Shown: positions 25,948-45,232, numbered from the stretch's first letter. The stretch: 64,000 nucleotides of DNA from Candidatus Woesearchaeota archaeon (GCA_016203305.1 JACQMY010000035.1:574-64573), one strand, 5' to 3'. Notes: generated by a model from the letters alone, not told the origin. A program made the numbers and translations.

Positions 25948-26269
25948 CTTTCTTACCTCCTCCCTCATTTCTGATGAACTCGGGAGAACCCGATTCAAAA
26001 TTAGAAGCCAACCAAGCCCCTGTTGACGTAAGACGCAACGGAACCCTTCTGCTCTGAAAATCAACAAAACCAAACTCTCTTAACTGTCTTAACACCAACC
26101 ACGTTGAAGACGCAGAAAAAGAAAAATTGTGGACAATGGTGTGAACAACACGAGTCGCAGGCAAACCCTCATTCTCTCGAATGAAACTAAGAACAGCTTT
26201 TTGCCTAGCTGTCAAGTGATTCTGCACAAACCCAAGAAGAACCGTAGAAAGTGCAAAGTACACCAGCAA
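25934..26269 (-). CDS. Winged-helix regulator (MarR-like)
   Basis: LTARQKAVLSFIRENEGLPATRVVHTIVHNFSFSASSTWLVLRQLREFGFV. Confidence 0.45.
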   Translation of the reverse strand: MLVYFALSTVLLGFVQNHLTARQKAVLSFIRENEGLPATRVVHTIVHNFSFSASSTWLVLRQLREFGFVDFQSRRVPLRLTSTGAWLASNFESGSPEFIRNEGGGKKDGNK

Positions 26270-26363
26270 TTCCTTGCAAGCGCTCCTGCTTCCTTGAGTT
26301 CTGCATCATAAAAACCAGAAATGACACGCACTATATTAACTTTTTGTGCGGAAAAAATTAGAG

Positions 26364-29300
26364 TTAGTCAAAACTCAAAGGCTCAAACATTGACATTATC
26401 GCATAAGCAGCGAGGCCAAGCAGAACAATAATCACAACTATCGCTATCTTAACTGCCTGGCTGTCAGGAGCGACGTCAAACTTTGCCGCAATGCTCTTCT
26501 TGGCATTTGACAAAAGCCTTCCCAACTTTGTGAACAAGCCCTCTTTAACAACTGCAGTTACTGGAACAGTAACCTCTGTCGGCTCAACAACAGGCTTTTC
26601 TGCCACTTTTTCAACCGGCTTCTCAACCGGCTTTTCAGGACGAGGCTGAATATTAAACGTAGGCAAGAACGGAACATTCGCAACAGTCTGGCCATTGGCA
26701 AGCTTGAACTCAACAGTCGCAGAGTTTCTACCAAAACTTAATACTTTCAAATCCAAATCTGCAACGCCGTCCTTGGACAAGTCAAACAAGCCACTCTCGC
26801 CCTTTGCAACAGGAATAAACTGAGCATTCAAAGCCCACTCAGTCGTCTGCCTACCAAGATCCACCTTACGCATGAAAATACTTGAAGGCAAAACAACCCC
26901 TCCAATGGTGAAAGACATAGGTTGACCAACAAACACTTCGCGAGCAACAGGAACTTCAGTCAAAGCAATACGAACACCGGCGCCTCCGCCAGAGCCACCA
27001 CCTCCACCACCGCCACCTCCGCCTCCGCCGCCAACACTTGGTGGAGGAGGAACTGCAACAGTCACGCTGCTCGAACCAACACTCGTGAAATTAAATCTAT
27101 CAGTAACAGTCAAAGTAACTGGGAAAGTTCCTGTCGTGTTATAACTCTTGTTAACACTTGAACTCGTGCTATTCGTACCGTCACCAAAGTTCCAGAAGAA
27201 CGACAAAGAATCATTCAAAGGTCCTGGAATGTTCGGATCAGTACTCGCGCTTGTGAATGTAATAACTGCATTCGGCTGCACTGCAGTAGCTGTCTGAGTA
27301 AATGACGCAACAGGTGGCAAAGGAATAACTTGCGACAAGTTTGCAGGACCAGACGCAGTAGCATTGTATGTTATGCCCCCCACCGCAATAGTACCTGAAG
27401 AGATCACGTTATTGGTAATGTTAGCGCTCGTGACAACAGCGTTGCTAAATTGGCTGTTAACAATCACGCTACCGACAATAACTGAGTTGTTGATGTTGCT
27501 GTTGACAATCGTGCTATTCGTAACATTGCTAAACGTCACATTGCTCTCAACAATAGAACTGCTGCCTTGAATGATGCTGCCAGTCAAATTGCTCGGGTCA
27601 ACAAAACTATCGGTAAACACGCAATTTGTTGCAGTAATGCCTTTAACCGTGCTGTTACGCACAACACAGTTTGTCAATAAAGAATTGGTAAATCTGCTAT
27701 CCAACCCGGAAACGTTCCGCAGCGTGCTATTCGAACCATTAACATTTATCAAAGAGCTATTTGAAGAAGTTGTTGTAGTCATATTCGCATTCAAAACAGT
27801 TGAAACGTTGATTGAGCCAGAAGTAAACACGCTATTGTTCATCGAGTTAACACCTGTAAGAGTTGACCCATCAAGGATATTCTGAGCAACATAAACCAGA
27901 TCTGAATTTGTAACATTACTTTGATTGTTGCATGCTACAAACACATTATTGCTGCCTAGAGTCAAGTTAGTGATGTTTGCAGTATGAGTCGTGCCATTGC
28001 CAGAGAAACCATTCGACATGCTGCCCTGCGCGACATCCTGAGTACTCCACCTGCACGATGTAACACCATTCGTTGTGACAGTCATTATGAATGAACTGAG
28101 GTTTAACAAAGTCCCGCTGGCTGGAACAATACTGGTCTGCGTTATCACGGGAGTAACAGTCACGAACAAAGTAGCACTCGCACCAGTCGCGTTCACATCA
28201 CCTGGGAAGACAGCAGTAACGTTGAACGTTCCTAACGATGTGAAATTAGTAACGTTCGTCAAAGGAGACGTTCCGTTTTGCGCAAGAGAGCCATTGATAA
28301 ACAAGTTCACAAAGCCGCCAAACGGATTTGTAACGTTTGCAACAATAGTCGCGGCATCATTAACTTGAACTGACGTGCTGGCTGCAACACCGTTAATAGT
28401 CAACGTAATCGCGCCAATGCCTGGGTTAATAGTATAAGTTGCATTTGCAGTCAAGTTGACATTGCCGGACGTATCATTCGCAAACCAGCGATAGGAATGA
28501 TTGCCAACAGTCAAGCCAGTCAAGTTCACTTCAAAAGTATTTGAAACACCAACACGAAGAGCTGAACGATTCAAGCCATCAAGCTCCAAAGTCATATTAG
28601 CAACTGCAAGATTATCAGTAACATCACGACGGAACGTGTAAACAGGACTAAAGTTTGCAGGAGACGCCGGGCTTAGTAATTCTGAACCAAACACCGGCGG
28701 AGTTGAATCAGGAACCACAACAAAGCGAGTCACACTCGAATTTGTGAAGTTCTGACTGCCAGCAAATACTGCAGTAATGTTAAACACGCCCTGAACGCCA
28801 AACAACTCATTCCTCGTCAAAGGAGCAGCTCCAGACGCAAGAAGCGCACCATTCTTGAAAATACTAACAGTTCCAGAAGTGTTTGTCAAGTTTGCAAATA
28901 ATGGAATAGTGCTGCCTTGCACAACAGTCACGTTGCCAGCAGTACCATTCAAAGTCAAGCTCAAATTACTAAACGCCTGACGAACACTATAGACACTTGC
29001 AGCGGTCACGTTCAAATTGCTGGAAGTATCACGAGCAAACCACTTGTACGAATAATTACCAGCTGCAAGCGTTGAAACATTAGCCTCAAACTCATTAGTC
29101 AGCCCAACACGCTGTGTTGTAACGTTCGCGCCATTAAACTCAAGGGAGACGTTTGAAACAGAAACGTCGTCAGTCACGTTACGCCTGAAAACATATTGTG
29201 CTTGAGGGAAGAAGCTGTTGTTCGCTGGAACAATAAGCTCTCCGCCAAACACAGGAGCCTGAGTGTCAATAACAGACACAAAACGCGTCAAGTTCGCAGG

Positions 29301-32300
29301 AGCAAAGTTTTGACTTCCGGCAAACTCAGTTGTAACATTAAACACGCCAGCAAAGTTAAAAGTCTGATTCGTACTCAAAGGAGCACTACCTGAAACAACA
29401 AACACTCCTGCTACTGAAATGTTAACAAGACCTGTTGTGTTAGCCAAGCTTGCAACAAGCTGAACCGTGCTGCTCTTTGATACTGTGATGTTTCCAGCAA
29501 CACCATTCAACGTCAAAGTCAAAGCGCTCTGCGCCTGCAAAATAGTATAATTGCTCGCAGTGCTGATATTTGTGTTGTTAGACGCATCAGTTGCGAACCA
29601 CCTGTAGGAATGATTACCCGCACTTGCATTTGAAATGTTAACTTCAAATGTGTCAGAAGCGCCAGCACGCAATGCAGTCAAATTAGTGCCATTAAACTCC
29701 AAGCGCACAGCAGCGACAGCATGGTCATCAGTAATATTTCTCCGGAAATTCGCCAATGAACCAAATACTGAGCTGTTCACAGGTACAACAGTCTCATTAC
29801 CGAAAGATGGCGGAAGAGTGTCAACAACAAAAACTGTAAACGAACGGTTTGCAGCAGAATAATTCTGATTGCCATCAAATGATGCGTTAATGGTGTAATT
29901 GCCTGGAATTATGAAAGTTTGATTTATACTTGCAGGATTATTCTGCGACAAGATCAAGGTTCCATTGTTGAACAACTTAACCAAACCAGAGGTATTAGTC
30001 AGATTTGCGGAAATGTTCAATATCGTCCTTGGCGAGACAGTGATGTTCGCAGCAGAGCCATTCAACAACAAGCTCAAATCACTTTGCGCGCGCAAAATCG
30101 ACAAAACAGAAACATTCGTGCTGTTCAAATTATTCGCACCATCCCTTGCAAACCAGCGAAAAGAATGGTTGCCGGCAGGAAGGTCCAAAACAGTAATGTT
30201 ATAGAAACTGCCATTCTGAGTGACATTTGTCAAGTTCTGACCATTCAGCTCGAATGTCACATTAGTGATATTTCCATTATCAGTCCAGTTAATGCCCCAC
30301 ATATAGCTCGCATTCGGTGCATAAACAGATCCATTCAACGGAGTAATTTGCCCACCAGGAGCAGGAGGAGTGATGTCAGAAATGTTCAAAGTGAAGTTGC
30401 CAGATGTGCATGCACCAACGTTATCACAAACCAGCAAAGGTATCACAAACACGCCATTGAATGCAGGCGTGAAGTTGATAACTCCGGTTAAATTGCTGAT
30501 GTTGAACAATGAGGCACTATCATTGAACGTTAAAATGTCATTCGTGGGATCACTGTCAGTCGCGTTCACATCAAAGAAAAACTCCCTGCCTGCCTCGCCA
30601 ATCTGGCTAGTGAAGTTCACAAACGCAGGAGCATCATTCAAGTTTGTAACACTAAAAGTGATGTTCTGCGAAACATTTTTTCCGGTACGATCGAACAAGA
30701 ACAAAGTCAAGTTCAAACTTCCAGTTGCATTAACTATTGGAACAAAAGCCAATCTGTCATTAGGAACGTCCAAGACCATATTAACAAGAGAAGTGTTCAA
30801 AACAGTAACCAACGTCAAGTTCGACTGGTTTGCAAGCTGGAACTTCCAAGAAAGATTGTTATTATTCGCGCCAGGACCATCCTCAGGATCATTCTCAAAT
30901 GGAGTAAGATCAATACTGTTATTCTGCTCCTCAAAGGTCGTGACGTTCGGAATAACTACTGTGAAGAATGGAACATCATCAACACCGTTCAAAACAATCG
31001 TGAACTCAGCAGTAACATTCTTACCAAACGGATCCTCTGCCGTCACGTTCACTTTTCTGACACCATTAACATTGAACTGAGGAATTATCAGCATACTGTT
31101 ATTCGAATTGTTAAACGTCAAAGTCACATTCGCCACAGACGACGCACGATATCCCAACGGATCACCATCAACATCAAAGAAAACCTGACTAAGATTTACT
31201 GTGAAAGTTGTGCTTTCATTAAATGGAGGGATTGTAGGAACACTCACGACAACAGGAGCATCGTTAACAGGAGTAACGTTAATTGTGATGTTCGCAGTAG
31301 AGGACAATCCCTGCGGGTCTGTTACAATCAATGTTGCCGTACCTATCCCGAAATCATCCGCAACAGGAACAACCGTCACGAACTGGTTCTGCTCGATCGA
31401 AACCGTGAAGCCAACAGTGCCAGAAACATTCAGAATGCCATACGTGAGCTGAGCCAGAGGAGTATCCACATCGGTCGTGAACTGGTGCAGGTTGACAACA
31501 CGAACGGCAGAACCGTCTTCAGTTATGTTAATCTGCGGCAATGCTGAAAACACCGGAGCACTTGCACTTGCAGAAACAATTATTGCGATAGTGTCAAACG
31601 CTGTCGCGTTCTGCGTGTCACGAACCGTAAAAACCACGTTGTCTGTGCCCACAAAGCCAGTGTTCGGCGTAAACTGCACGTCCTGGCCAAAGTCAACTCG
31701 AATTCCGATACTCGTGTTGCCAGAAAAGTTCAACGTCAAACTACCATCAGGATCCTGCGCGTCATCAATGAAAGGACTCACGTTAAACCGCGTCACGCTG
31801 TTTGCAAGAATCGTCAAGTTCTGCGGCAAATTAATTGTTGGAGGCGTATTTCCTGTTGAAACATTGCCGGGCTGCAAGAGAACAGAAACCGTTGCGTCAC
31901 CAAAAATGTCAACACTGTCCGTCACAGTTGTGAAATTTCCACTGCTGGTATTTGTTCCATTCACAACATACAAATAATTACCTTCAGGAACATTTGAAAA
32001 TCTAGCAGACCCATTCTCATCAGTTCTGTTCGAACCAATACCGGCCAAAGTCACGTTCGAACCGTTAATCTTCGCGCCAGTCTGAGCATTAAGAACATTA
32101 AACGTAACATTCCCACTCTGAGTTCCAATTACATTCACAAGCATACTCACTTCAGCAGTTATTTCCGGCAAAGTGGTAGGCAAAGCCGAGTTTGCACGCG
32201 CACGAACAGTAACATTATGCACGCCAGCCAGAGTTGGAACAAAAGAAAACTGTTGAAGCGTGGCATTTACAGGATCGGGGTTTTTGATCAACGTATTTCC

Positions 32301-33284
32301 TAACGAGCTGAATACTGTCGCGCTATTCCTTGCCACTATATAGTCAACATCCGTCTGCACAGGCGTCAAAGTTGAACCGTTGCCCTGCGCGTGATTTGTG
32401 ATCTTCGTGTATGAAAATCCCAACTCCAGACCAACACGCGCGCTTGTCGTCGTCTGCAGGTCAGCAAGAATGCTATAAAACTGGGAAGCAGGAGAAGTAA
32501 CAGTAAAAGGCGATTGCGTGGACTGAGTTTCCTGAGACGCACAAGTATCATCAACAACACTCGCACTCACGCGCGCAGTGAAAGTACCATTGGCTTGAGG
32601 GATGAAAGCAAACGAAACAGGAACTGTTGAATCTGCAACAATCGCGGTATTTGTAGCAGCGGTAAAGTTCTGCTGCTGGCTGTGAATGACCGTGCTGCCA
32701 TTCAAAACTTCAAACAAAACAGAAGTGTCGGCAGCCCAGAACTCCTGAACAAATTGAGGAGGAAGATACTGCACGTCCGTCCTCGTGATGCGGAACGCAC
32801 TCGATGTCTCAGCATCCAACTGAGCGCTAGTCTGGAACGCCAACGGCTTGTTCAGCTCAACGTTATTCGTAAAGCTCAACGCGCCAACACTCGCACGACA
32901 AGTATTAGGATACTTTGTAAAAGTGTTTGACTCTGAAGTTTGCGCAACACCACCAATGCCACGCGTGTTCCAAGTATGCTTACCAACCAAAGGACGATAA
33001 CCCTTTGCAAGGAAATACTCAGCATACCCGAACGCTGTTGCCAAACTATCAGGATAACGGAAAATCACATTACCATCAGTTGCCTGTGGTCCTTTGATAA
33101 TCTGACCAGAGAAAGCACCAACGCTGGCACAATTCGCGTCATTACAGTTCACAACAGTAGAGTTCAGCGAGACATTTATTCCAGGCAAGTCAGCATACGA
33201 AAAACGATACGTCACATCAACAGCAGCATACGCTACCTGAACTGCCAACAATGCTACCAATGCAAGTAACAATTTCTTCATCAT
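26364..33284 (-). CDS. Giant secreted surface protein (2,306 aa): signal peptide, ~4.5 Ig-like tandem repeats of ~230 aa, a beta-solenoid segment, a PKD domain, a poly-Gly linker and a C-terminal TM anchor. It is extremely rich in N-x-S/T sequons.
   Basis: MMKKLLLALVALLAVQVAYA signal. Repeated FRRxVTDD...GNHSYRWFA...LNG.AGN.TV modules. WNFGDGTNS PKD motif. A GGGGGGGGGGGGGSGGGAG run. PEKPVEKPVEKVAEKP then IAIVVIIVLLGLAAYAIM at the C-terminus. Confidence 0.8.
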   Translation of the reverse strand: MMKKLLLALVALLAVQVAYAAVDVTYRFSYADLPGINVSLNSTVVNCNDANCASVGAFSGQIIKGPQATDGNVIFRYPDSLATAFGYAEYFLAKGYRPLVGKHTWNTRGIGGVAQTSESNTFTKYPNTCRASVGALSFTNNVELNKPLAFQTSAQLDAETSSAFRITRTDVQYLPPQFVQEFWAADTSVLFEVLNGSTVIHSQQQNFTAATNTAIVADSTVPVSFAFIPQANGTFTARVSASVVDDTCASQETQSTQSPFTVTSPASQFYSILADLQTTTSARVGLELGFSYTKITNHAQGNGSTLTPVQTDVDYIVARNSATVFSSLGNTLIKNPDPVNATLQQFSFVPTLAGVHNVTVRARANSALPTTLPEITAEVSMLVNVIGTQSGNVTFNVLNAQTGAKINGSNVTLAGIGSNRTDENGSARFSNVPEGNYLYVVNGTNTSSGNFTTVTDSVDIFGDATVSVLLQPGNVSTGNTPPTINLPQNLTILANSVTRFNVSPFIDDAQDPDGSLTLNFSGNTSIGIRVDFGQDVQFTPNTGFVGTDNVVFTVRDTQNATAFDTIAIIVSASASAPVFSALPQINITEDGSAVRVVNLHQFTTDVDTPLAQLTYGILNVSGTVGFTVSIEQNQFVTVVPVADDFGIGTATLIVTDPQGLSSTANITINVTPVNDAPVVVSVPTIPPFNESTTFTVNLSQVFFDVDGDPLGYRASSVANVTLTFNNSNNSMLIIPQFNVNGVRKVNVTAEDPFGKNVTAEFTIVLNGVDDVPFFTVVIPNVTTFEEQNNSIDLTPFENDPEDGPGANNNNLSWKFQLANQSNLTLVTVLNTSLVNMVLDVPNDRLAFVPIVNATGSLNLTLFLFDRTGKNVSQNITFSVTNLNDAPAFVNFTSQIGEAGREFFFDVNATDSDPTNDILTFNDSASLFNISNLTGVINFTPAFNGVFVIPLLVCDNVGACTSGNFTLNISDITPPAPGGQITPLNGSVYAPNASYMWGINWTDNGNITNVTFELNGQNLTNVTQNGSFYNITVLDLPAGNHSFRWFARDGANNLNSTNVSVLSILRAQSDLSLLLNGSAANITVSPRTILNISANLTNTSGLVKLFNNGTLILSQNNPASINQTFIIPGNYTINASFDGNQNYSAANRSFTVFVVDTLPPSFGNETVVPVNSSVFGSLANFRRNITDDHAVAAVRLEFNGTNLTALRAGASDTFEVNISNASAGNHSYRWFATDASNNTNISTASNYTILQAQSALTLTLNGVAGNITVSKSSTVQLVASLANTTGLVNISVAGVFVVSGSAPLSTNQTFNFAGVFNVTTEFAGSQNFAPANLTRFVSVIDTQAPVFGGELIVPANNSFFPQAQYVFRRNVTDDVSVSNVSLEFNGANVTTQRVGLTNEFEANVSTLAAGNYSYKWFARDTSSNLNVTAASVYSVRQAFSNLSLTLNGTAGNVTVVQGSTIPLFANLTNTSGTVSIFKNGALLASGAAPLTRNELFGVQGVFNITAVFAGSQNFTNSSVTRFVVVPDSTPPVFGSELLSPASPANFSPVYTFRRDVTDNLAVANMTLELDGLNRSALRVGVSNTFEVNLTGLTVGNHSYRWFANDTSGNVNLTANATYTINPGIGAITLTINGVAASTSVQVNDAATIVANVTNPFGGFVNLFINGSLAQNGTSPLTNVTNFTSLGTFNVTAVFPGDVNATGASATLFVTVTPVITQTSIVPASGTLLNLSSFIMTVTTNGVTSCRWSTQDVAQGSMSNGFSGNGTTHTANITNLTLGSNNVFVACNNQSNVTNSDLVYVAQNILDGSTLTGVNSMNNSVFTSGSINVSTVLNANMTTTTSSNSSLINVNGSNSTLRNVSGLDSRFTNSLLTNCVVRNSTVKGITATNCVFTDSFVDPSNLTGSIIQGSSSIVESNVTFSNVTNSTIVNSNINNSVIVGSVIVNSQFSNAVVTSANITNNVISSGTIAVGGITYNATASGPANLSQVIPLPPVASFTQTATAVQPNAVITFTSASTDPNIPGPLNDSLSFFWNFGDGTNSTSSSVNKSYNTTGTFPVTLTVTDRFNFTSVGSSSVTVAVPPPPSVGGGGGGGGGGGGGSGGGAGVRIALTEVPVAREVFVGQPMSFTIGGVVLPSSIFMRKVDLGRQTTEWALNAQFIPVAKGESGLFDLSKDGVADLDLKVLSFGRNSATVEFKLANGQTVANVPFLPTFNIQPRPEKPVEKPVEKVAEKPVVEPTEVTVPVTAVVKEGLFTKLGRLLSNAKKSIAAKFDVAPDSQAVKIAIVVIIVLLGLAAYAIMSMFEPLSFD
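27600..30350 (-). repeat. In-frame tandem ~690-bp coding repeats (~4.5 copies) within the giant surface protein gene
   Basis: Recurrent protein blocks (FRRNxTDD / GNHSYRWFAxD / LNGxAGNxTV / FAGSQNF). Coordinates are approximate. Confidence 0.5.
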
Positions 33285-34933
33285 CAGTTGCCCGTACCTG
33301 GCTGAGTATCTCCACCACCGTCAATTGGAGGCGGCGTGCTTGGGCCAGGAGAGGGACTTGGAGACGGACTCGGGGACGGGCTTGGAGACGGACTCGGAGA
33401 CGGACTGGGCGACGGGCTTGGAGAAGGGTCCGGAGACGGACTGGGCGACGGATCAGGAGATGGATTTGGAGATGGGCTCGGAGACGGACTTGGAGATGGA
33501 GGAGCTGCAGAACTGTCACGATCTTTCTTGCCAGAAGTCAGCGCATAAGCAGTTGCTCCTCCTGCCGCGACTGTTTCCATCCACGACCATGCTTCCATGA
33601 CGCGTGGCCGCAGATTCTCCCCGATAAAATTTGTCCCAGAATTCTTTGCGCCACGTGTGCGACTGGCACCCTCCTGGAGTACATCGGCGAGTTGTTCAAC
33701 ATCGCTGGAGCCATCTGGTGAATAGACATTGCGCGTCCAGGAATTACGACCATGACCGCTCGCATAGTGGAAGATTAGATTTATTGCAGGCACCGCGTAA
33801 ATTGCAAGATTGGGATGCAAGAGGCTCGGATCAACACAGTGCTGATCGAATGTTTCACGGATTCTCCTAACCACATGTGCTTGAAGAGCAAGCGTATCAG
33901 GGCCGTTCAAACCACGCTTTCGTGCGATTTCAAGCGGAATGCGCAACGCATAAACAGCTCGATTCTGAAATGCAAGGTGCCTGTTTTCATACGTGTCCTC
34001 TGCAACAAGAGTTTGCACATCAAGCATCAATTCCCGCATGAAGTTTTCTAGCGTCAGCCCCCTGCCACGTGCAATACCCTGCTCGTACAGTACGCTATTA
34101 TTCTCAAACAAATCTTGCAGCGTTTCACCTTTATATTTATCCCACACCGCGTCAGGAGTAATAGTTGCCGCATTATCCTCCAATGCAAGAGTAAGCTGTA
34201 TCACTCTCCGGTAGGCATCGTCCATAGGTTGAACTCTGAATTCAAGTGCGTTCGCATGTGCTACACCAGAGAGAACAGCGCGGAGGAACTCCAGAGATGC
34301 CCTATTATACTCTGCAATGGACTTATGCTCCACATTGTTTCCTGAAATCGCGGCATCACGTGCTGCCTTATTCGCAGGATTGATTGTGCCCAAAAGTTTA
34401 GTAAGTTCAGTTTCGCACGCTGCCAACTGCTCCGCACTCAATGGTTCAATATCACCAACACTGTCAAGTGTACTGTTCGCGTCAACGTTCGTCATCAAAT
34501 ATCTCTGAACAAGATTTTGTTCGAACAGCCGTGCAAGCAGTGTGTTCTGGCTGTGAAGTTCTGCAACTAACGGAGGTAATGCGGCTGCTGATTGAGTCGC
34601 ATAAGGTCTCGCGGCGAGGAAACGCGTGCTAACAAACTCATCGATCGTTCCATTATATTCGTACCTCGTTGCCTGTGCATTAACTGCACGAACCGGAACG
34701 TCCATATCTGGCTTATATCCCACAGGCGTTGCGCAACCGCTTCCTGACAAGGAAACAAGACCTACTAGTCCGAGTATGCTGCCTCCCGCGGTAAATCTGC
34801 GATTTGCAGGCAGCTTTTCAGTTTTATCTGAAACATCACGATCGTAGAAACGACCCACTAAATACCCAAAAAGTCCTCTGCGAGAAGATTGTTCCGGTGA
34901 GTATACCATTTGCCCCCAAGACGCGAAAAACAC
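33284..34933 (-). CDS. Putative Tat-exported lipoprotein with a C-terminal (PS)n linker, translationally coupled to the giant surface protein gene
   Basis: NRRFTAGGSILGLVGLVSLSGSGCA is a twin-arginine motif with a lipobox Cys. The C-terminus is SPSPSPSPSPNPSPDPSPSPSPDPSPSP... and the stop overlaps the next start at 33284. Confidence 0.55.
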   Translation of the reverse strand: MFFASWGQMVYSPEQSSRRGLFGYLVGRFYDRDVSDKTEKLPANRRFTAGGSILGLVGLVSLSGSGCATPVGYKPDMDVPVRAVNAQATRYEYNGTIDEFVSTRFLAARPYATQSAAALPPLVAELHSQNTLLARLFEQNLVQRYLMTNVDANSTLDSVGDIEPLSAEQLAACETELTKLLGTINPANKAARDAAISGNNVEHKSIAEYNRASLEFLRAVLSGVAHANALEFRVQPMDDAYRRVIQLTLALEDNAATITPDAVWDKYKGETLQDLFENNSVLYEQGIARGRGLTLENFMRELMLDVQTLVAEDTYENRHLAFQNRAVYALRIPLEIARKRGLNGPDTLALQAHVVRRIRETFDQHCVDPSLLHPNLAIYAVPAINLIFHYASGHGRNSWTRNVYSPDGSSDVEQLADVLQEGASRTRGAKNSGTNFIGENLRPRVMEAWSWMETVAAGGATAYALTSGKKDRDSSAAPPSPSPSPSPSPNPSPDPSPSPSPDPSPSPSPSPSPSPSPSPSPSPSPSPSPGPSTPPPIDGGGDTQPGTGN

Positions 34934-34985
34934 CAGCCATTATATAAAGGTTTCACTTTTTTAGCATTTGACAATAGTAACAAAC

Positions 34986-35165
34986 TAGGATGAAGGATGT
35001 AGGGCGAAGGATGAAGGTATTAGGATGAAGGCGGAAGGAAGAAGGGATTAGGCATTGGGTATTAGGACGAAGGGCGAAGGTGGAAGGAAGAAGACGAGGA
35101 TGAAGGTGGAAGGGTGAAGGAAGAAGGTTGGAGGACGAAGGCTTTTGGCAATTAGCTATTAGAAA
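34986..35165. repeat. Longest G-rich heptamer array in the window (~25 units), ending in GGCAATTAGCTATTAG
   Basis: ggatgaaggatgtagggcgaaggatgaaggtattaggatgaaggcggaaggaagaagggattaggcattgggtattaggacgaagggcgaaggtggaaggaagaag... Confidence 0.7.
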
Positions 35166-35204
35166 TCAGGCACGAAAAATAATGGGAAAAAGAATCAGAA
35201 AAAA

Positions 35205-35393
35205 TCACTCGGCATCCGCCCAAGCATCTGCCGCCTCATCGCTGGCAGCTTCATCACTTTCCAAGTCCTCTTCATACTCCGTATCTTCATCGACAGGAAC
35301 CTTGTCATCCTCCTCAAAGGTCTCTTCCTTTTCCTCTTCAGATTCCTGCTCTACTTCTTGTGTTGTCTCCTTTTTCACCTTCTTTCCAACCAT
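35205..35393 (-). CDS. Small highly acidic protein (62 aa). It is uncertain whether this is a real gene.
   Basis: MVGKKVKKETTQEVEQESEEEKEE...DEAADAWADAE, 12 nt downstream of rpl15e. Confidence 0.3.
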   Translation of the reverse strand: MVGKKVKKETTQEVEQESEEEKEETFEEDDKVPVDEDTEYEEDLESDEAASDEAADAWADAE

Positions 35394-35405
35394 TCATTAC
35401 CACCT

Positions 35406-35972
35406 CTACAGTCTTCGTGAATGCGAACGTCGCGAAGGTCGAGCCTTCTCAGCGCCCATGCCCTTATACCGGAGTCCGCGCACCTTCCTGCCCGCGCTAG
35501 TCAACCCGCGGAAAACACGGCCAACATGCTGTGGCTCGCCTATCCAAGAAATCCGATGATCAGCAAGAACACCAGGATGAGACCTGTCAACCAAGACAAC
35601 CTCAAACCAGTAATGCTTACCATCCTCGTCAACATAATAAGAATTCAAAACTTCACAATTCTTGAAAACACGCCCAGCACGCTCCTCTGCAATCATCTGA
35701 TAGTTCTTACGCAGATTCAAACGAGCACCCATGTTGTGCGAATGCCTGCCACCACTCCAATCGTGACGCCTGTGCGATCCACGAGAAACACGCTGGCGAA
35801 CAAGCATAAAACCCTGCTTAGCACGATAGCCAACAGAACGCGCACGATCCAACCTAGTCGGGTGCTCGATACGTTGAGTAACAGGCTCGCGCCTCCAAAG
35901 AACCATACGATCCCGGTGAGCAGCACCAGCGAATTCCTTCCACGACTTTTGCAAGTATTTATAGACACCCAT
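35406..35972 (-). CDS. rpl15e: Ribosomal protein L15e
   Basis: MGVYKYLQKSWKE...YRAKQGFMLVRQRVSRG...YWFEVVLVD is the canonical L15e sequence. Confidence 0.9.
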   Translation of the reverse strand: MGVYKYLQKSWKEFAGAAHRDRMVLWRREPVTQRIEHPTRLDRARSVGYRAKQGFMLVRQRVSRGSHRRHDWSGGRHSHNMGARLNLRKNYQMIAEERAGRVFKNCEVLNSYYVDEDGKHYWFEVVLVDRSHPGVLADHRISWIGEPQHVGRVFRGLTSAGRKVRGLRYKGMGAEKARPSRRSHSRRL

Positions 35973-36150: not shown

Positions 36151-38556
36151 CTAAAACCCTGACAAACTACTCTGCTTGGTCTCACTTATCAAGTCATCAA
36201 CCTTTATGTCCAACACTGCAAAAATACGCTCAACACCAGGAACAACTTGGTTCTGAATATAATACTCACCGTCATAATCATCCTGTTTTGCTTCATGTGG
36301 CAGACGAACCTTGTCACGAATCTTTCCCTTGCCCTTTATCACCACATACTTAACGATCGTGCCACTGCCAACCTCAACACCTTGTGATTCCAAACGCCGA
36401 GCAGCAGCAACATGCGGACCAATCGAAGAATACGCACCGGTGCCCTTTGACAAAGCAGTATGAATGACCACTTTGTCCAAAGGAATCTTGTTCTTCCGCA
36501 AATCATCAACAACCTGACGAACGTACGCCTTTGCCTTTTTCGCATCATGATCCTTCAAAATAATCTCCAAAACGCGCTTCTGCACATCCTTCGCGATAAA
36601 ACTCCAATTCCTCCGAACACTCTCAAAACCCTTAATCTTCATATTGCCTTTTTCGTCCAACAACGCATACTTCTTCTTCGCGCCGGCCTCGCCTGCTTTC
36701 AAAGAAACAAACACCCCTGACGGATAAAATCCCTCAAAGTCAAGCTCCATCAAACCAGGCAAACTCTTGTTAACCTGCTCAACTAACGCCAAAGCTTCAT
36801 CTTTTGATTTCTTGTCCAACAACAAAAAGACGCTATCGGTATCAGAATAAAGCACTGTGAAACCTGCTTGTTGAGCAGTTTCAATCGCCTTATGAATATA
36901 ATGCCTTGCCCAAGCAGTCGTGCTCTCCGCACACTCTATGCAATACCAACGCGCAGGCGCAAAACCCATGTAGCCGTAAAAACTATTTGCAAGCACCTTC
37001 AAAGCTTCAGAACGCGCAGCCAACAAAGGATCCTGGCTTTTTTTGATCTCTTTCTTAATCTCAGCACGACGCAAAATCAATTCCTGAATAACCTCGCTGA
37101 ACAACCCCTTACGCTTGGCACAATACCTGAACTTTCCTCTTTCAGTATCAATCGTCGGACCATCAGTACAACAATTACAATTCAAAACACCCTTGCTAAT
37201 ATTGTGAGACGCTATAATGCTAGGATACAAACTCCGATAATCAAACACTGCAATCTTCTCATAAAACCCTGGCTTGGGCTCAAACACAAACGCGCCTTTA
37301 ACCCGATCAGCCATACGCCCACCCTCCATATCACGCGAAGGCCTGTTCAGAATAATCTCATTCCTACCAGCAGCCTGATGAATCAAATACCACTCAACAA
37401 AAGTAGAAAACGGCATCCGGTTAATGTCATAAGGTGGAAGACGAATAATCCTTACAAACTCCAACAACAACGGCAAAACCTTAACTGCCAGATCGTAAGT
37501 TAACTTGCAATCCTGAAGGTTATATTTGCAGAACTCCTCCAAGTCCTGGCTGCATTCATCCCATGCCGGAGCAAGCCGGTTCATGTCAACCTTATGCTTC
37601 TGAGCCCCGAGAAGCTCCTTAGAAACAGCATCCAAAGTAAACACGTCTGTCTTGAGCGAACGACTCATAACACGACGAACAAACTTGAAAATATCCACAT
37701 GAGAAATTCCTGCAATCCTCGCCTCATTCTCAATCTTGCCAGCAATATCAATCTTACTTCCATCCAAACCAATATCCAATTGAACTTTGCACACTTTTGC
37801 ACGCTCAGCCAAGTATGGAAAATCAAAACCGTCAGAAAAATAGCCAGTTATGACATCTGGCCCGCATTCATGAACGAGCTCAACAAACCGTTTCAACATG
37901 TCTGCCTCAGAACCAACAAACTCAACATAATCCAGCTTTGACGAGAACTTCTTCCACGTCACAACTCTTGAAAAGTTTGCACCGTATAATCCGATCATTA
38001 AAATAGGATTCTTCTTCATATTCACCTTGTTATCAGGATTATAAGTCTCAATATCGACAGCCAGAACTCGTGGAGCAAGAATGTCGTCTGCTTCCTGCCA
38101 AATCTTTGACACGCGCAAGCAAGGAACACGGAAACCAAGCTGGACCTCCTCGCCTTCAACCTCGGTGCGCACCATTGGAATAATTCGTTTATCAATCAAA
38201 TACCTGCGCGCGAAAAGAACATCATACTCGTAAACTGCAACACCCGGGATGCTCTTCGCAAGATCCTTCAAAACTGGAACACCCTTCGGCAAGTTTGTAA
38301 ACACACGCAACGCGTCAACATCATGCTCGTTCAAATTCTTATTAACTTTCTCAACACGCGTTACGAAAAAATCACCATCTCGCAGAGCCTCCAACAGTAC
38401 AGGGTCTATATTGCCAACAACTGTGAAATACGGCTCGAAAGAATCATCAACAACACAAACCTGCCTGCCAGAAACATCCCTCCCATAAAGAAGAATTGCC
38501 GCGCGACCATCACGCACAACATACGTCACATCCACAGGATAAAAGCTCAGCCTCAC
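36151..38556 (-). CDS. polB: Family B DNA polymerase
   Basis: Exonuclease motifs, YxxxLYPS-like (DYRSLYPSII), KxxxNSxYG (KVLANSFYGYMG), YSDTDS (TVLYSDTDSVFL). Confidence 0.9.
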   Translation of the reverse strand: MRLSFYPVDVTYVVRDGRAAILLYGRDVSGRQVCVVDDSFEPYFTVVGNIDPVLLEALRDGDFFVTRVEKVNKNLNEHDVDALRVFTNLPKGVPVLKDLAKSIPGVAVYEYDVLFARRYLIDKRIIPMVRTEVEGEEVQLGFRVPCLRVSKIWQEADDILAPRVLAVDIETYNPDNKVNMKKNPILMIGLYGANFSRVVTWKKFSSKLDYVEFVGSEADMLKRFVELVHECGPDVITGYFSDGFDFPYLAERAKVCKVQLDIGLDGSKIDIAGKIENEARIAGISHVDIFKFVRRVMSRSLKTDVFTLDAVSKELLGAQKHKVDMNRLAPAWDECSQDLEEFCKYNLQDCKLTYDLAVKVLPLLLEFVRIIRLPPYDINRMPFSTFVEWYLIHQAAGRNEIILNRPSRDMEGGRMADRVKGAFVFEPKPGFYEKIAVFDYRSLYPSIIASHNISKGVLNCNCCTDGPTIDTERGKFRYCAKRKGLFSEVIQELILRRAEIKKEIKKSQDPLLAARSEALKVLANSFYGYMGFAPARWYCIECAESTTAWARHYIHKAIETAQQAGFTVLYSDTDSVFLLLDKKSKDEALALVEQVNKSLPGLMELDFEGFYPSGVFVSLKAGEAGAKKKYALLDEKGNMKIKGFESVRRNWSFIAKDVQKRVLEIILKDHDAKKAKAYVRQVVDDLRKNKIPLDKVVIHTALSKGTGAYSSIGPHVAAARRLESQGVEVGSGTIVKYVVIKGKGKIRDKVRLPHEAKQDDYDGEYYIQNQVVPGVERIFAVLDIKVDDLISETKQSSLSGF

Positions 38557-41135: not shown

Positions 41136-41948
41136 TCAATACGTGAGCAATGCCTGGAAAACGCTTGCAGTCACGTACGTCTCTATAAATGCTGCAACTA
41201 TCAAACAACCAATCGCGCCCAGCAATAACAGGAAACAATTGCGAACAACATTCCTGAACGCATCACTGCCCCACTGCTCCTTCACAATAGCGCGAGAAAA
41301 AGTCGCACCCGCAATGGCCCCAAGAATAAAGCCTGCGCTCTCTGGCAACAAGTGAGACAATGAAACAATTGTAAGCTGTGGAGCAACAGACCAGCGCAAG
41401 AACAATTGAAGTATGAAGGCGGCAAAAAAAGACGCATTATACGCAATGAGGAATACCGAGCCAGCACCGTACGCAACTGAAATGAGCACGCCAATCAACA
41501 AGTACCAAAGATTATTGCTAAATAACGCAAGCGCTATATCAAAAGAAGGACTGTAACCCTGCAAAAACTGAGTGATCAACTCAGGCTTCAAATGACCAGT
41601 TTGCAATTGCATTGTCTGATAAGACAATGAAGATGGCTCAAAAATACCAAGCAAGAGAAAACCAGCAAGCAACCCAAAAAAACCACCCAAATAGCACTTA
41701 ACAATCGTGTGATGACGCGACCAAAAATGCCTTGAACCGCTACGTTCAATAGTTTCCTCAACAATAATCAAATGATGCAAACTAGGCAACAATAAGATTG
41801 TGACCAACAAAACACTAGCCAAGCCCTGCCCTGGAAAAAACACTTCCTGAACTCCAAACGCAATAAAAACATACAATGCACTCAAAAGAAAAAGAAAATA
41901 GAAATGCCGCAACACAATCCTTTTGTGAAAAAATTGCTCAAGCACCAT
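41136..41948 (-). CDS. Polytopic membrane protein, possibly SpoIIM/DUF95-like, coupled to the upstream surface protein gene
   Basis: 270 aa with 5-6 TM helices. The start abuts the stop of 41949..43817. Confidence 0.35.
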   Translation of the reverse strand: MVLEQFFHKRIVLRHFYFLFLLSALYVFIAFGVQEVFFPGQGLASVLLVTILLLPSLHHLIIVEETIERSGSRHFWSRHHTIVKCYLGGFFGLLAGFLLLGIFEPSSLSYQTMQLQTGHLKPELITQFLQGYSPSFDIALALFSNNLWYLLIGVLISVAYGAGSVFLIAYNASFFAAFILQLFLRWSVAPQLTIVSLSHLLPESAGFILGAIAGATFSRAIVKEQWGSDAFRNVVRNCFLLLLGAIGCLIVAAFIETYVTASVFQALLTY

Positions 41949-45203: not shown

Positions 45204-45232
45204 CCTACAACCTTCGTCCTATTCCGGCCTTA
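45128..45232. repeat. Heptamer array (gaagg aagaagg x4) and a downstream inverted C-rich segment, overlapping the 5' end of the pilin-like ORF
   Basis: ggaaggtagaaggaagaaggaagaaggaagaag ... cttcatcctacaaccttcgtcctattcc. Confidence 0.6.

What the first reader, a model, noticed from the sequence alone, without database searches (positions are those of the whole stretch)
26364..34933. Second giant glycoprotein-like surface protein, translationally coupled to a Tat lipoprotein with a (PS)n stalk
The 549-aa upstream gene has a twin-arginine signal plus a lipobox and ends in ~60 residues of SP/DP repeats. Its stop overlaps the start of the 2,306-aa protein at 33284. The latter has ~4.5 Ig-like tandem repeats, a PKD domain, a 19-residue Gly run and a C-terminal TM anchor preceded by (PEKPV) repeats. 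The N-x-S/T density suggests heavy archaeal N-glycosylation. This looks like a two-component surface layer or adhesin module, distinct from the LamG giant.
Basis: partly seen in the sequence, partly recalled or inferred. Interest (0 to 1): 0.55.

Follow-up and report, generated by a model that had tools for sequence, protein, structure and literature searches.

The report
Conserved archaeal lipoprotein–adhesin gene pair
A small membrane-tethered helical protein and a giant sugar-coated surface fibre are encoded as a fused-together gene pair. The pair recurs in every related Woesearchaeota (DPANN archaea) genome found, so it is probably a lineage-specific two-part cell-surface attachment device made of protein parts no database has described.

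Summary
Two minus-strand genes, A at 33284-34933 (likely true start ATG 34909, 541 aa) and B at 26364-33284 (2306 aa), overlap in TGATG. One TATA box and one T6 run bracket them.

B has a Sec signal peptide, a novel 365-aa head and Ig/cadherin/PKD modules, including 4.5 repeats of 186 aa. It also has a 19-residue Gly run, a PEKPV stalk and a C-terminal TM helix. Its 148 N-x-S/T sequons compare with 51 expected (z=15), and 140 of them lie in the stalk.

A has an RR motif, a Cys ending the h-region, a novel all-alpha body, a 66-residue linker that is mostly (PS)n, and the tail PPIDGGGDTQPGTGN.

The new result is that all 11 independent relatives found, all Woesearchaeota/Nanoarchaeia where named, keep the pair adjacent. 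This holds whether they were found through A or through B. The Cys and the Gly-rich C-terminal tail are the conserved parts of A. In one locus an Ig domain replaces the body but both ends remain. RR is present in only 3 of 12 loci, so Tat export is not a family trait.

The two-component module is supported, and adhesin fits better than S-layer. A looks like a scaffold, not an enzyme. How A and B cooperate remains inferred.

The parts
34941..34948 (-). TATA box TTTATATA, preceded by a BRE-like GAAACC. It is the presumed single promoter of the A-B unit.
   Evidence: It is the only TTTAWAWA on the minus strand of 26000-35300. The same GAAAnnTTTATA(TA) box, a ~25-nt spacer, a GGGG run and a start codon recur in L004, L007, L009, L010, L011 and L012.
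34913..34917 (-). GGGGG Shine-Dalgarno-like run, 3 nt upstream of the ATG at 34909.
   Evidence: The element is conserved in the syntenic loci.
33284..34909 (-). Gene A, 541 aa from ATG 34909 (the mechanical ORF from GTG 34933 gives 549 aa). It encodes a lipobox-type, all-alpha protein with a Pro/Ser tether and a conserved Gly-rich C-terminal peptide.
   Evidence: An exhaustive HMMER search of 1.84 billion representatives found only 5 homologues. Profile search of fetched loci found more.
34736..34909 (-). Signal region of A (aa 1-58). It is an unusually long n-region with two RR pairs (SRRGLFGY and NRRFTAGG), followed by the h-region GGSILGLVGLVSLSGSG.
   Evidence: Homologues have short signal peptides of 20-33 aa.
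34733..34735 (-). Cys59, the putative lipid-attachment cysteine at the end of the h-region, followed by the conserved xxxGY[RK].
   Evidence: A Cys sits at this position in all 10 full-length A proteins and in the L012 variant. A PS51257-type pattern matches 7 of 11 proteins, and the strict lipobox matches 4 of 11.
33530..34732 (-). All-alpha body of A (about 400 aa), a novel family.
33332..33529 (-). Flexible linker KKDRDSSAAPP(SP/DP)n...GPSTP, 66 aa. Its DNA is an imperfect 12/36-nt tandem array.
   Evidence: The expansion is specific to this window. The distance from the invariant Gly to the C-terminus is 111 aa here and 53-67 aa in 8 homologues.
33287..33331 (-). Conserved C-terminal peptide PPIDGGGDTQPGTGN-COOH. 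The family consensus is PP[IV]xGGGGT[IT]xPG[TV]GN.
   Evidence: Alignments. Identity by codon position is 0.81/0.77/0.32, so selection acts on the peptide. In 1110 six-frame ORFs of the window and loci, the motif occurs only in the genes directly upstream of B genes. L012 retains it although the body is swapped.
33282..33286 (-). TGATG junction, where the stop of A overlaps the start of B by one base.
   Evidence: Homologous junctions are TAAAATG in 6 loci, ATGA overlaps in L009, L011 and L012, and 21-28-nt gaps in L004 and L010.
26364..33284 (-). Gene B, 2306 aa, a type-I membrane-anchored and sequon-rich modular surface protein.
33225..33284 (-). Sec-type signal peptide of B, MMKKLLLALVALLAVQVAYA. 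The mature N-terminus AVDVTY.F is conserved.
32130..33224 (-). Conserved head of B (aa 21-385) with four invariant Cys. It is present in every B orthologue.
   Evidence: It is 46-55% identical in 9 orthologues, and 73 columns are invariant in the first 260 aa. There is no PDB sequence hit. Only sub-threshold Ig-like hits appear, to Cep192_D1, BatD and CARDB. Sequons are not enriched here, 8 against 5.2 expected.
27930..32117 (-). Variable extender (aa 390-1785). It comprises a prealbumin-like domain, four or five ~97-aa Big_9/cadherin-like/tandem-95 domains, and 4.5 copies of a 186-aa double-Ig repeat.
   Evidence: It is absent from the short orthologues of 607-858 aa and present in the long ones. 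Together with the conserved base it carries 140 of the 148 sequons (aa 386-2080, z=16).
27057..28139 (-). Conserved membrane-proximal base of B. It comprises a Cys-containing domain (aa 1716-1835), an N/S/T-rich beta-helix-like segment (aa 1836-1985) and a PKD domain (aa 1990-2076).
   Evidence: It is present in all 9 orthologues compared, at 37-62% identity. PKD_4 scores E=3.5e-13.
26976..27032 (-). Gly run GGGGGGGGGGGGGSGGGAG.
   Evidence: The longest run in orthologues is 1 to 16 Gly, so this is not a universal feature.
26385..26975 (-). Proximal domain (aa 2104-2212, found in long forms only), the PEKPV stalk and the TM helix IAIVVIIVLLGLAAYAIMSMF, followed by the 6-aa tail EPLSFD.
26352..26357 (-). 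T6 run 7 nt after the B stop codon, an archaeal terminator-like signal.
   Evidence: There is no other T6 run on this strand between 26358 and 35198.

Best explanation
A and B form a lineage-specific, bicistronic cell-surface module of Woesearchaeota (DPANN).

B is a fibrillar adhesin-type glycoprotein. It is exported by Sec and held in the membrane by a C-terminal TM helix. A conserved base (Cys domain, beta-helix-like segment, PKD) sits near the membrane. A variable, heavily N-glycosylated Ig/cadherin extender sets how far the fibre reaches. A conserved, unglycosylated, Cys-containing head at the tip is the likely ligand-binding or host-binding end.

A is a scaffold or accessory subunit, not an enzyme. 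It is tethered to the outer face of the membrane by its N-terminal lipobox-type Cys, or at least by that signal sequence. It carries a flexible Pro-rich tether that ends in the conserved peptide PPxGGGGTxxPGTGN.

Translational coupling (TGATG) yields the two proteins from one mRNA in a linked ratio. A then acts together with B. Most likely the tail peptide docks onto the invariant membrane-proximal base of B, or onto another envelope component at a fixed height, to organise, hold or regulate the fibre.

Shown: the gene structure, the domain content, the sequon bias, the conservation of the pair and the peptide-level conservation of the tail. Inferred: lipidation, co-transcription, a physical A-B contact and adhesion as the function.
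For: - Pair conservation. The A homologues in the 5 distinct loci reached through A are each followed within 1-22 nt by a B orthologue. Each of the 6 new loci reached through the B head has an A-type gene directly upstream.
- Stable chromosomal position. The order PolB - L15e - small acidic ORF - A - B is shared with L007, L009, L010, L011 and L012, with L15e and the acidic ORF also upstream in L004. A GrpE/DnaK block lies downstream of B in the window, L004, L009 and L010.
- One transcription unit. There is one TATA box and one terminator-like T6 run around the pair, and the promoter layout is conserved.
- Essential parts of A. The Cys at the end of the h-region is invariant. The C-terminal peptide is conserved at the protein level, with codon-position identity 0.81/0.77/0.32. 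It is found only in these genes. In L012 a He_PIG Ig domain replaces the body, yet the RR/Cys N-terminus and the ...GGNTGGAGTGN end remain.
- B's anatomy fits an adhesin. The head and base are universal, while the extender is present or absent and B length ranges from 607 to 2306 aa. Sequons are confined to the stalk (z=16), with the head bare.
- A's tail length is nearly constant, 53-67 aa in 8 homologues, whatever the length of B. This fits a target at a fixed height rather than the distal head.
- Lipobox proteins are reported to be prevalent in DPANN (PMC12462473).
Against: - No direct evidence shows that A touches B. No complex could be modelled, and the AF2 tail is low-confidence.
- The window's lipobox is non-canonical (G-S-G-C, Cys at residue 59). 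Only 4 of 11 family members fit the strict lipobox.
- The hydrophobic helix before the linker reaches TM-like hydropathy in some homologues, 1.8-1.9 in L003, L004 and L010. If it is a TM helix there, the tail would be cytoplasmic. The window's version contains two Glu and is not TM-like.
- A shows no sequon enrichment, unlike B.
- The adhesion function rests on analogy only. No ligand-binding fold was identified in the head.
- Only 12 loci are known, so statistics on co-variation are impossible.
Confidence: 0.55

Rival explanations
1. The pair is a two-component S-layer like Sulfolobales SlaA/SlaB. B would form the outer lattice and A the membrane stalk that holds it.
For: The pair combines a large glycoprotein with a smaller elongated helical membrane-tethered protein. 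It appears to be a bicistronic unit. The pair is conserved and sits among housekeeping genes. B has a very high sequon density.
Against: B has its own TM anchor. Orthologue length varies nearly four-fold through gain or loss of whole extender blocks, which is hard to reconcile with a fixed lattice unit. Neither protein hits an S-layer family. The relative L003 encodes a separate 825-aa S_layer_C protein 5 kb upstream of its own A-B pair. The gene order, small protein first, is the reverse of slaA-slaB (own knowledge).
Confidence: 0.12
2. A is a dedicated, transient assembly or maturation factor for B, for example holding B during folding, glycosylation or membrane insertion. It would not be a stable partner in the finished structure.
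Confidence: 0.15
3. A is a Tat-exported, cofactor-bearing or pre-folded enzyme that modifies B. This takes the first reader's 'Tat lipoprotein' literally.
For: RR motifs precede the h-region in the window (NRRFTAGG), in L007 (VRRFLAPV) and in L012 (TRREALAT). The window's n-region is long.
Against: Nine of 12 A-type proteins lack RR. There is no cofactor motif or enzyme fold. Only five columns are invariant across the 11 aligned sequences, and they form no recognisable catalytic motif. Non-halophilic archaea are reported to use mainly Sec for lipoproteins.
Confidence: 0.05
4. The conserved C-terminal peptide is a processing or ligation signal. Its P-G-T-G core resembles a sortase LPxTG core. 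Through it A would be covalently joined to B, for example to B's conserved mature N-terminus AVDVTY, or to another envelope polymer.
For: The terminal peptide is strictly conserved at the protein level and always lies at the extreme C-terminus. It survives a body swap. The mature N-terminus of B is also highly conserved.
Against: No hydrophobic segment or basic tail follows the motif, unlike all known sortase, archaeosortase or rhombosortase signals. Thr is replaced by Val in L002 and L006, and the motif degenerates in L004, L009, L010 and L011. No transpeptidase gene is conserved next to the pair.
Confidence: 0.08
5. The two genes are merely neighbours with unrelated functions.
For: No experimental link exists, and A and B share no domains.
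Against: The genes are adjacent in all 11 independent relatives at only 15-28% A identity. The junctions are 1-nt overlaps or 1-nt gaps in most. The tail motif is found only upstream of B genes.
Confidence: 0.03

Closest known systems
Sulfolobales SlaA/SlaB two-component S-layer (own knowledge, not tested here by structure)
   Same: Both encode two co-transcribed envelope proteins, a large heavily N-glycosylated outer protein and a smaller elongated alpha-helical membrane-tethered partner.
   Different: Here the large protein has its own TM helix and is an Ig/cadherin/PKD fibre of very variable length. The small protein comes first in the operon and is tethered by an N-terminal lipobox-type Cys rather than a C-terminal TM helix. 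It ends in a conserved Gly-rich peptide. There is no sequence similarity, and a relative carries a separate S_layer_C gene.
Bacterial giant repeat adhesins built from Ig-like/cadherin-like extender domains, e.g. LapA, SiiE, MpIBP and Bap-type proteins (own knowledge), plus NCBIfam 'tandem-95 repeat' proteins
   Same: Both have a long run of Ig-like/cadherin-like modules (Big_9, Cadherin_4/5, Big_3_5, tandem-95) that project a distinct terminal region away from the cell. Repeat number varies between orthologues.
   Different: This protein is archaeal, exported by Sec and anchored by a type-I TM helix, not by T1SS or an outer-membrane plug. It is densely sequon-coated. Its head and base domains are unlike any described family. 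It has an obligatory upstream lipobox partner.
Archaeal lipobox lipoproteins (AliA/AliB pathway, Haloferax; PMC12462473)
   Same: A has an N-terminal signal peptide ending in small residues followed by an invariant Cys. DPANN genomes are reported to be rich in such proteins.
   Different: The lipobox is relaxed in most family members. The window's Cys lies at residue 59 after a long n-region. No lipidation evidence or AliA gene was examined. Most described archaeal lipoproteins are solute-binding proteins or redox proteins rather than partners of an adhesin (own knowledge).
Giant surface proteins of DPANN episymbionts, e.g. the nanohaloarchaeal SPEARE proteins (own knowledge; giant surface proteins of nanohaloarchaea are mentioned in PMC10266531, listed)
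   Same: Both are very large secreted multi-domain proteins in a reduced DPANN genome and are presumed to mediate contact with a host cell.
   Different: B has no protease or nuclease domains and is smaller. It is defined by a conserved head and base and by its coupled lipobox partner. It shares no similarity with the >5790-aa giant in the same window.

Membership tests
Lipobox lipoproteins (bacterial Lgt/Lsp-type; archaeal AliA/AliB-type) | An N-terminal signal peptide with a hydrophobic h-region ending in a Cys | tested here: met
   The h-region has hydropathy 1.0-1.8, and the Cys is invariant in 10 full-length A proteins and in the L012 variant.
Lipobox lipoproteins (bacterial Lgt/Lsp-type; archaeal AliA/AliB-type) | Canonical lipobox [LVI]-3 [ASTVI]-2 [GAS]-1 C+1 | tested here: inconclusive
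   The window has G-S-G-C, so the strict pattern is not met, although a PS51257-type pattern matches. Across the family, 4 of 11 are strict and 7 of 11 fit the PS51257 type. The window's Cys is at residue 59, outside the usual 15-35 range.
Lipobox lipoproteins (bacterial Lgt/Lsp-type; archaeal AliA/AliB-type) | Actual lipid modification of the Cys, and the biogenesis enzymes (AliA/AliB) in the genome | not testable with these tools
   Only 64 kb of the genome is available, and no AliA gene was looked for.
Tat (twin-arginine) substrates | An S/T-R-R-x-F-L-K-like motif just before the h-region | tested here: inconclusive
   The window has N-R-R-F-T-A-G, so RR is present but the flanks are weak. 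A second SRRGLFG lies upstream without an h-region. No TatP or SignalP tool was available.
Tat (twin-arginine) substrates | Motif conserved among orthologues | tested here: not met
   RR precedes the h-region in only 3 of 12 proteins: the window, L007 and L012.
Tat (twin-arginine) substrates | TatA/TatC present in the genome | not tested
   No Tat component appeared among the window ORFs scanned, but the whole genome is not available.
PKD-domain proteins (Pfam PF18911 / PF00801) | A score above the Pfam gathering threshold | tested here: met
   PKD_4 scores 49.8 bits against a cut-off of 27, and PKD scores 30.7 against 23.5, at aa 1990-2076. The domain is also in the orthologues.
Ig/cadherin-repeat extender adhesins | Tandem Ig-like or cadherin-like modules above family thresholds | tested here: met
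   Big_9 scores 52 bits against 23.6 over 4 stretches, Cadherin_4 scores 28.8 against 25.1, and Cadherin_5 scores 26.9 against 26.5. There are 4.5 self-repeats of 186 aa. The NCBIfam tandem-95 hit is below its cut-off, 53.8 against 90.
Ig/cadherin-repeat extender adhesins | Demonstrated binding to a surface or host ligand | not testable with these tools
   No ligand-binding fold was recognised in the head.
Archaeal S-layer proteins (S_layer_N / S_layer_C; SlaA/SlaB) | Sequence membership in a described S-layer family | tested here: not met
   Neither A nor B gives an S-layer hit in Pfam or NCBIfam. The S_layer_C protein of L003 has no homologue in the window.
Archaeal S-layer proteins (S_layer_N / S_layer_C; SlaA/SlaB) | Forms a 2-D lattice and is the dominant envelope protein | not testable with these tools
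   This needs cryo-ET or proteomics.
C-terminal sorting signals (sortase LPxTG, archaeosortase PGF-CTERM, rhombosortase GlyGly-CTERM) | Tripartite signal of a motif, then a hydrophobic helix, then a basic tail at the C-terminus | tested here: not met
   A's motif is the last 12-15 residues, with nothing after it. B ends in a plain TM helix plus 6 residues, with no PGF- or LPxTG-type motif in front of it.

The most novel reading that the evidence does not exclude
The peptide PPxGGGGTxxPGTGN-COOH, together with the N-terminal lipobox Cys, defines a new class of archaeal 'tethered-plug' adaptor. The adaptor's body is interchangeable, an alpha-bundle here and an Ig domain in L012. Its C-terminal peptide would insert into, or be ligated to, the invariant base or the conserved N-terminus of the fibre protein. 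This would give DPANN cells a two-point-anchored, possibly switchable, host-attachment fibre. It would be a previously undescribed C-terminal recognition tag and a new assembly principle for archaeal surface structures.
Probability: 0.12. Interest if true: 0.75.

Novelty: new variant of a known kind. Interest (0 to 1): 0.5.

Why it matters
DPANN archaea such as Woesearchaeota are thought to live attached to other cells, yet almost nothing is known about the molecules that make the contact. This pair is a concrete, conserved candidate. It offers a fibre with a defined head, an expandable glycosylated shaft and an obligatory membrane-tethered partner with a short conserved terminal peptide.

Three sequence elements have no described family: A's body, B's head and the C-terminal tag. 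They can now be searched for and tested.

If the tail-to-fibre docking idea is right, it would add a new way of assembling archaeal surface structures. It would also provide a handle for finding partner pairs in other uncultured lineages. If it is wrong, the result is still a well-delimited surface operon of a poorly known group.

Tried and rejected
- The first homology search with full-length A was swamped by the (PS)n tail. All 52 hits were low-complexity Pro/Ser matches.
- Profile searches in the word-indexed protein database returned only one protein each, so they gave no distribution estimate.
The B-head alignment was used instead.
- The single-sequence AF2 model of A was poor, pLDDT 45.
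- RNA or RBS conservation as the reason for the conserved 3' end of A was rejected. Third codon positions are only 32% identical against 77-81% for the first and second positions.
- Programmed frameshift or read-through fusing A to B was rejected. The B frame relative to A differs between loci, a 1-nt overlap here and a 1-nt gap in most others. B also has its own signal peptide.
- The C-terminal hydrophobic helix of A was rejected as a TM segment for the window, because it contains two Glu and is not among the top hydropathy peaks. The question stays open for L003, L004 and L010.
- The idea that A tether length scales with B length was rejected. The tail is 53-67 aa whether B is 607 or 1926 aa, and only the window has 111 aa.
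- Pairing between the Gly run in B and the GGGG in A was not supported. B orthologues have longest Gly runs from 1 to 16 residues.
- The exact window proteins are not in the 15-billion-protein collection, so the source genome could not be identified.
- Literature searches found no description of this pair.

Full report
**What is in the sequence**

Two long ORFs lie head-to-tail on the minus strand. ORF A is 33284..34933 (549 aa from GTG), and ORF B is 26364..33284 (2306 aa from ATG). The junction reads GGC AAC TGA TG ATG AAG. The TGA stop of A (33286-33284) and the first ATG of B (33284-33282) therefore share one base.

The window is archaeal. The genes just upstream are ribosomal protein L15e (35406-35972) and a family-B DNA polymerase (36151-38556). 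An Hsp70/GrpE/DnaJ block lies further downstream.

On the minus strand between 26000 and 35300 there is exactly one TATA-like box, TTTATATA at 34941-34948. There are only two T6 runs. One follows the preceding small ORF, and the other (26352-26357) lies 7 nt after the stop of B. I infer that A and B form one transcription unit, but this is not shown.

GTG 34933 lies only 8 nt from the TATA box. A GGGGG run precedes ATG 34909 by 3 nt, and the same box-spacer-GGGG-start layout recurs in six syntenic loci. The real A protein is therefore most likely 541 aa, starting at 34909.

**Protein B**

- There is a Sec-type signal peptide, MMKKLLLALVALLAVQVAYA.
- Pfam gives Big_9 (4 stretches), Cadherin_4 and Cadherin_5, plus a PKD domain at aa 1990-2076. 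All of these score above their cut-offs.
- NCBIfam gives 'tandem-95 repeat' stretches, below the cut-off.
- A 186-aa unit is repeated about 4.5 times between aa 931 and 1785, at 31-50% identity with E down to 2e-60.
- The 19-residue run GGGGGGGGGGGGGSGGGAG, the PEKPVEKPVEKVAEKPV stalk and the TM helix IAIVVIIVLLGLAAYAIMSMF (hydropathy 2.79) are followed by six residues.

B has 148 N-x-S/T sequons against 50.8 +/- 6.3 in composition-preserving shuffles (z=15.3). The excess lies entirely in aa 386-2080, with 140 observed against 47.7 expected. The N-terminal 365-aa head is not enriched (8 against 5.2), and the last 226 residues have none. Cytoplasmic proteins in the window have 0-0.7 sequons per 100 aa. 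B shares no detectable similarity with the >5790-aa ORF at 46625-63997.

**Protein A**

After a long n-region comes NRRFTAGG, then the hydrophobic stretch GGSILGLVGLVSLSGSG, then Cys59 in 541-aa numbering. About 400 helical residues follow. The 66-residue linker KKDRDSSAAPP(SP/DP)n...GPSTP comes next, and the last 15 residues are PPIDGGGDTQPGTGN. The linker's DNA is an imperfect 12/36-nt tandem array at 33348-33500.

The body has no Pfam, NCBIfam or PDB sequence match. An exhaustive HMMER scan of 1.84 billion cluster representatives found only five relatives, the best at E=2.6e-18. Two of these (P0055, P0057) carry source names, both 'hypothetical protein' of Candidatus Woesearchaeota.

**The decisive evidence: the pair is conserved**

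The A homologues in the five distinct loci reached through A (L001, L002, L003, L004, L006, with L005 a duplicate of L004) are each followed within 1-22 nt by a large secreted protein. These proteins are 607, 728, 731, 848 and 1877 aa long.

They are B orthologues. They share four modules with B: the head (46-55% identity), the Cys-containing domain at aa 1716-1835, the N/S/T-rich beta-helix-like segment and the PKD domain. They also end in a TM helix as B does.

I then searched from the other side, using an alignment of the B head. This recovered four new species-representative genomes, all labelled Woesearchaeota or Nanoarchaeia, and two metagenome contigs. Every one has an A-type gene ending at the start of B.

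Together with the window, that makes 12 independent loci with no exception. This holds even though A identities are only 15-28%. Junctions are TAAAATG in six loci, ATGA-type overlaps in three, TGATG here, and 21-28-nt gaps in two.

In the clade with long B proteins the pair sits at a fixed chromosomal position. The order PolB - L15e - small acidic ORF - A - B is shared with L007 and L009-L012, with L15e and the acidic ORF also upstream in L004. A GrpE/DnaK block lies downstream of B in the window, L004, L009 and L010. The pair is therefore a vertically inherited core feature, not a mobile island.

**Which parts of A matter**

Only a few features survive across all A proteins.
- The Cys at the end of the signal-peptide h-region is followed by xxGY[RK].
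- A handful of body residues are conserved.
- The C-terminal peptide has the consensus PP[IV]xGGGGT[IT]xPG[TV]GN-COOH.

In the last 12 codons, nucleotide identity is 0.81 and 0.77 at codon positions 1 and 2 but only 0.32 at position 3. Amino-acid identity there is 0.72. Selection therefore acts on the peptide, not on an RNA element or ribosome-binding site for B.

Among 1110 six-frame ORFs in the window and all fetched loci, this kind of C-terminus occurs only in the genes directly upstream of B genes.

The most telling case is L012. It has the same PolB - L15e - A - B synteny as the window, but its 'A' is only 179 aa. It has an RR/Cys signal (TRREALATMVAAVSSFYLPGC), a He_PIG Ig-like domain (E=4.5e-8), a Pro-rich linker and ...PVSGGNTGGAGTGN. 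The body is interchangeable, whereas the two ends are not.

**Tat or Sec, and the lipobox**

RR precedes the h-region only in the window, in L007 (VRRFLAPV) and in L012. The other nine proteins have short, ordinary signal peptides.

The strict lipobox is met in 4 of 11 proteins and a PS51257-type pattern in 7 of 11. The window's G-S-G-C matches only the looser pattern, and its Cys lies unusually far from the N-terminus.

A recent survey reports that lipobox proteins are prevalent in DPANN. It also reports that archaea other than Halobacteria mainly use Sec for them (PMC12462473). 'Lipobox-type protein' is therefore a reasonable reading. 'Tat substrate' is at most a local peculiarity and remains unproven.

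**How it most likely works**

B has the anatomy of a fibrillar adhesin. An invariant base sits next to the membrane anchor. A shaft of Ig/cadherin modules is gained or lost in blocks, giving 607-2306 aa, and it carries essentially all the glycosylation sites. A conserved, sequon-poor head with four invariant Cys sits at the far end.

A looks like a membrane-tethered adaptor, and its functional elements are its anchor and its terminal peptide. The distance from A's last invariant Gly to its C-terminus is 53-67 residues in eight homologues, whether B has 607 or 1926 residues. A tether of constant length fits a target at a constant height. The invariant base of B is the obvious candidate, and the head is not, because its distance from the membrane varies by more than 1500 residues.

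The 1-nt overlap suggests termination-reinitiation coupling, so that the two proteins are made together. This chain of reasoning is inference. No tool here could model a complex.

The window's extra ~50 residues of (PS)n are unique to it and unexplained.

**Alternatives**

- A SlaA/SlaB-like S-layer is possible but less likely. B has its own TM helix and highly variable length, neither protein hits an S-layer family, and L003 carries a separate S_layer_C gene next to its own A-B pair.
- A transient chaperone role for A cannot be excluded.
- An enzymatic or Tat-cofactor role has no support.
- A covalent-ligation reading of the P-G-T-G core is attractive but lacks the hydrophobic and basic segments of all known sorting signals. 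The motif also degenerates in four loci.
- Read-through or frameshift fusion is excluded, because the frame relationship differs between loci and B has its own signal peptide.

**Verdict**

The Tat label, the generality of the (PS)n stalk and the S-layer option are not supported.

The module consists of known kinds of parts, a lipobox protein and an Ig/PKD repeat surface protein. Its arrangement, however, has not been described, and three of its elements have no described family: A's body, B's head and the C-terminal tag. It is confined, as far as the searches reached, to 12 loci, and all those with taxonomic labels are Woesearchaeota or Nanoarchaeia.

I rate it a new variant of a known kind, of moderate interest.

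Noticed in passing
window 35205-35393 (-): A 62-aa, extremely acidic small ORF (MVGKKVKKE...YEEDLESDE...AWADAE) with a GAGGTGGT Shine-Dalgarno lies between L15e and gene A. An equivalent ORF (MPAKKK...YEEDLE...W.DE) occupies the same place in L004, L007, L009, L010, L011 and L012. It has no Pfam or NCBIfam hit.
   Followed up: partly
window 34987-35141: A pyrimidine-rich (on the minus strand) array of about 22 degenerate 7-nt units (TCATCCT / TTCGCCC / TCCACCT) lies just upstream of the A promoter. It is absent from the six syntenic loci, and its function is unknown.
   Followed up: partly
window 34941-34990 and the equivalent regions of L004, L007, L009, L010, L011, L012: The promoter architecture upstream of gene A is conserved. 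A TGTTACTATTG-like box lies about 20 nt upstream of GAAAnnTTTATA(TA), followed by a ~25-nt spacer, a GGGG(G) run and the start codon. The upstream box could be a regulator binding site.
   Followed up: no
L012 5394-5933 (+): A variant partner gene encodes 179 aa with an RR/Cys signal, a He_PIG Ig-like domain, a Pro-rich linker and the same ...GTGN C-terminus. It replaces the ~470-aa helical A protein in front of a B orthologue.
   Followed up: yes
window 46625-63997 (-) and 45219-46610 (-): A second giant ORF of more than 5790 aa runs off the end of the window. It has 4.5 sequons per 100 aa, and a hydrophobic segment lies about 170 residues from its basic C-terminal end. It is unrelated to B. 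Fourteen nt downstream lies a 463-aa protein with 24 Cys and a weak Dicty_CTDC hit.
   Followed up: partly
window 41949-43817 (-) and 41136-41948 (-): A 622-aa protein with moderate sequon density (2.9 per 100 aa) and a weak Filamin-repeat hit abuts a SpoIIM-family membrane protein whose gene starts one base after it ends. This may be another surface-protein unit.
   Followed up: no
L003 1361-3838 (-): The Woesearchaeota relative that carries an A-B pair also encodes an 825-aa S_layer_C-family protein about 5 kb upstream. No homologue of it is present in this 64-kb window.
   Followed up: yes
window, whole length: GC skew is negative in nearly every 2-kb bin, with the cumulative value falling to -4.75. 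Most long ORFs are on the minus strand.
   Followed up: no
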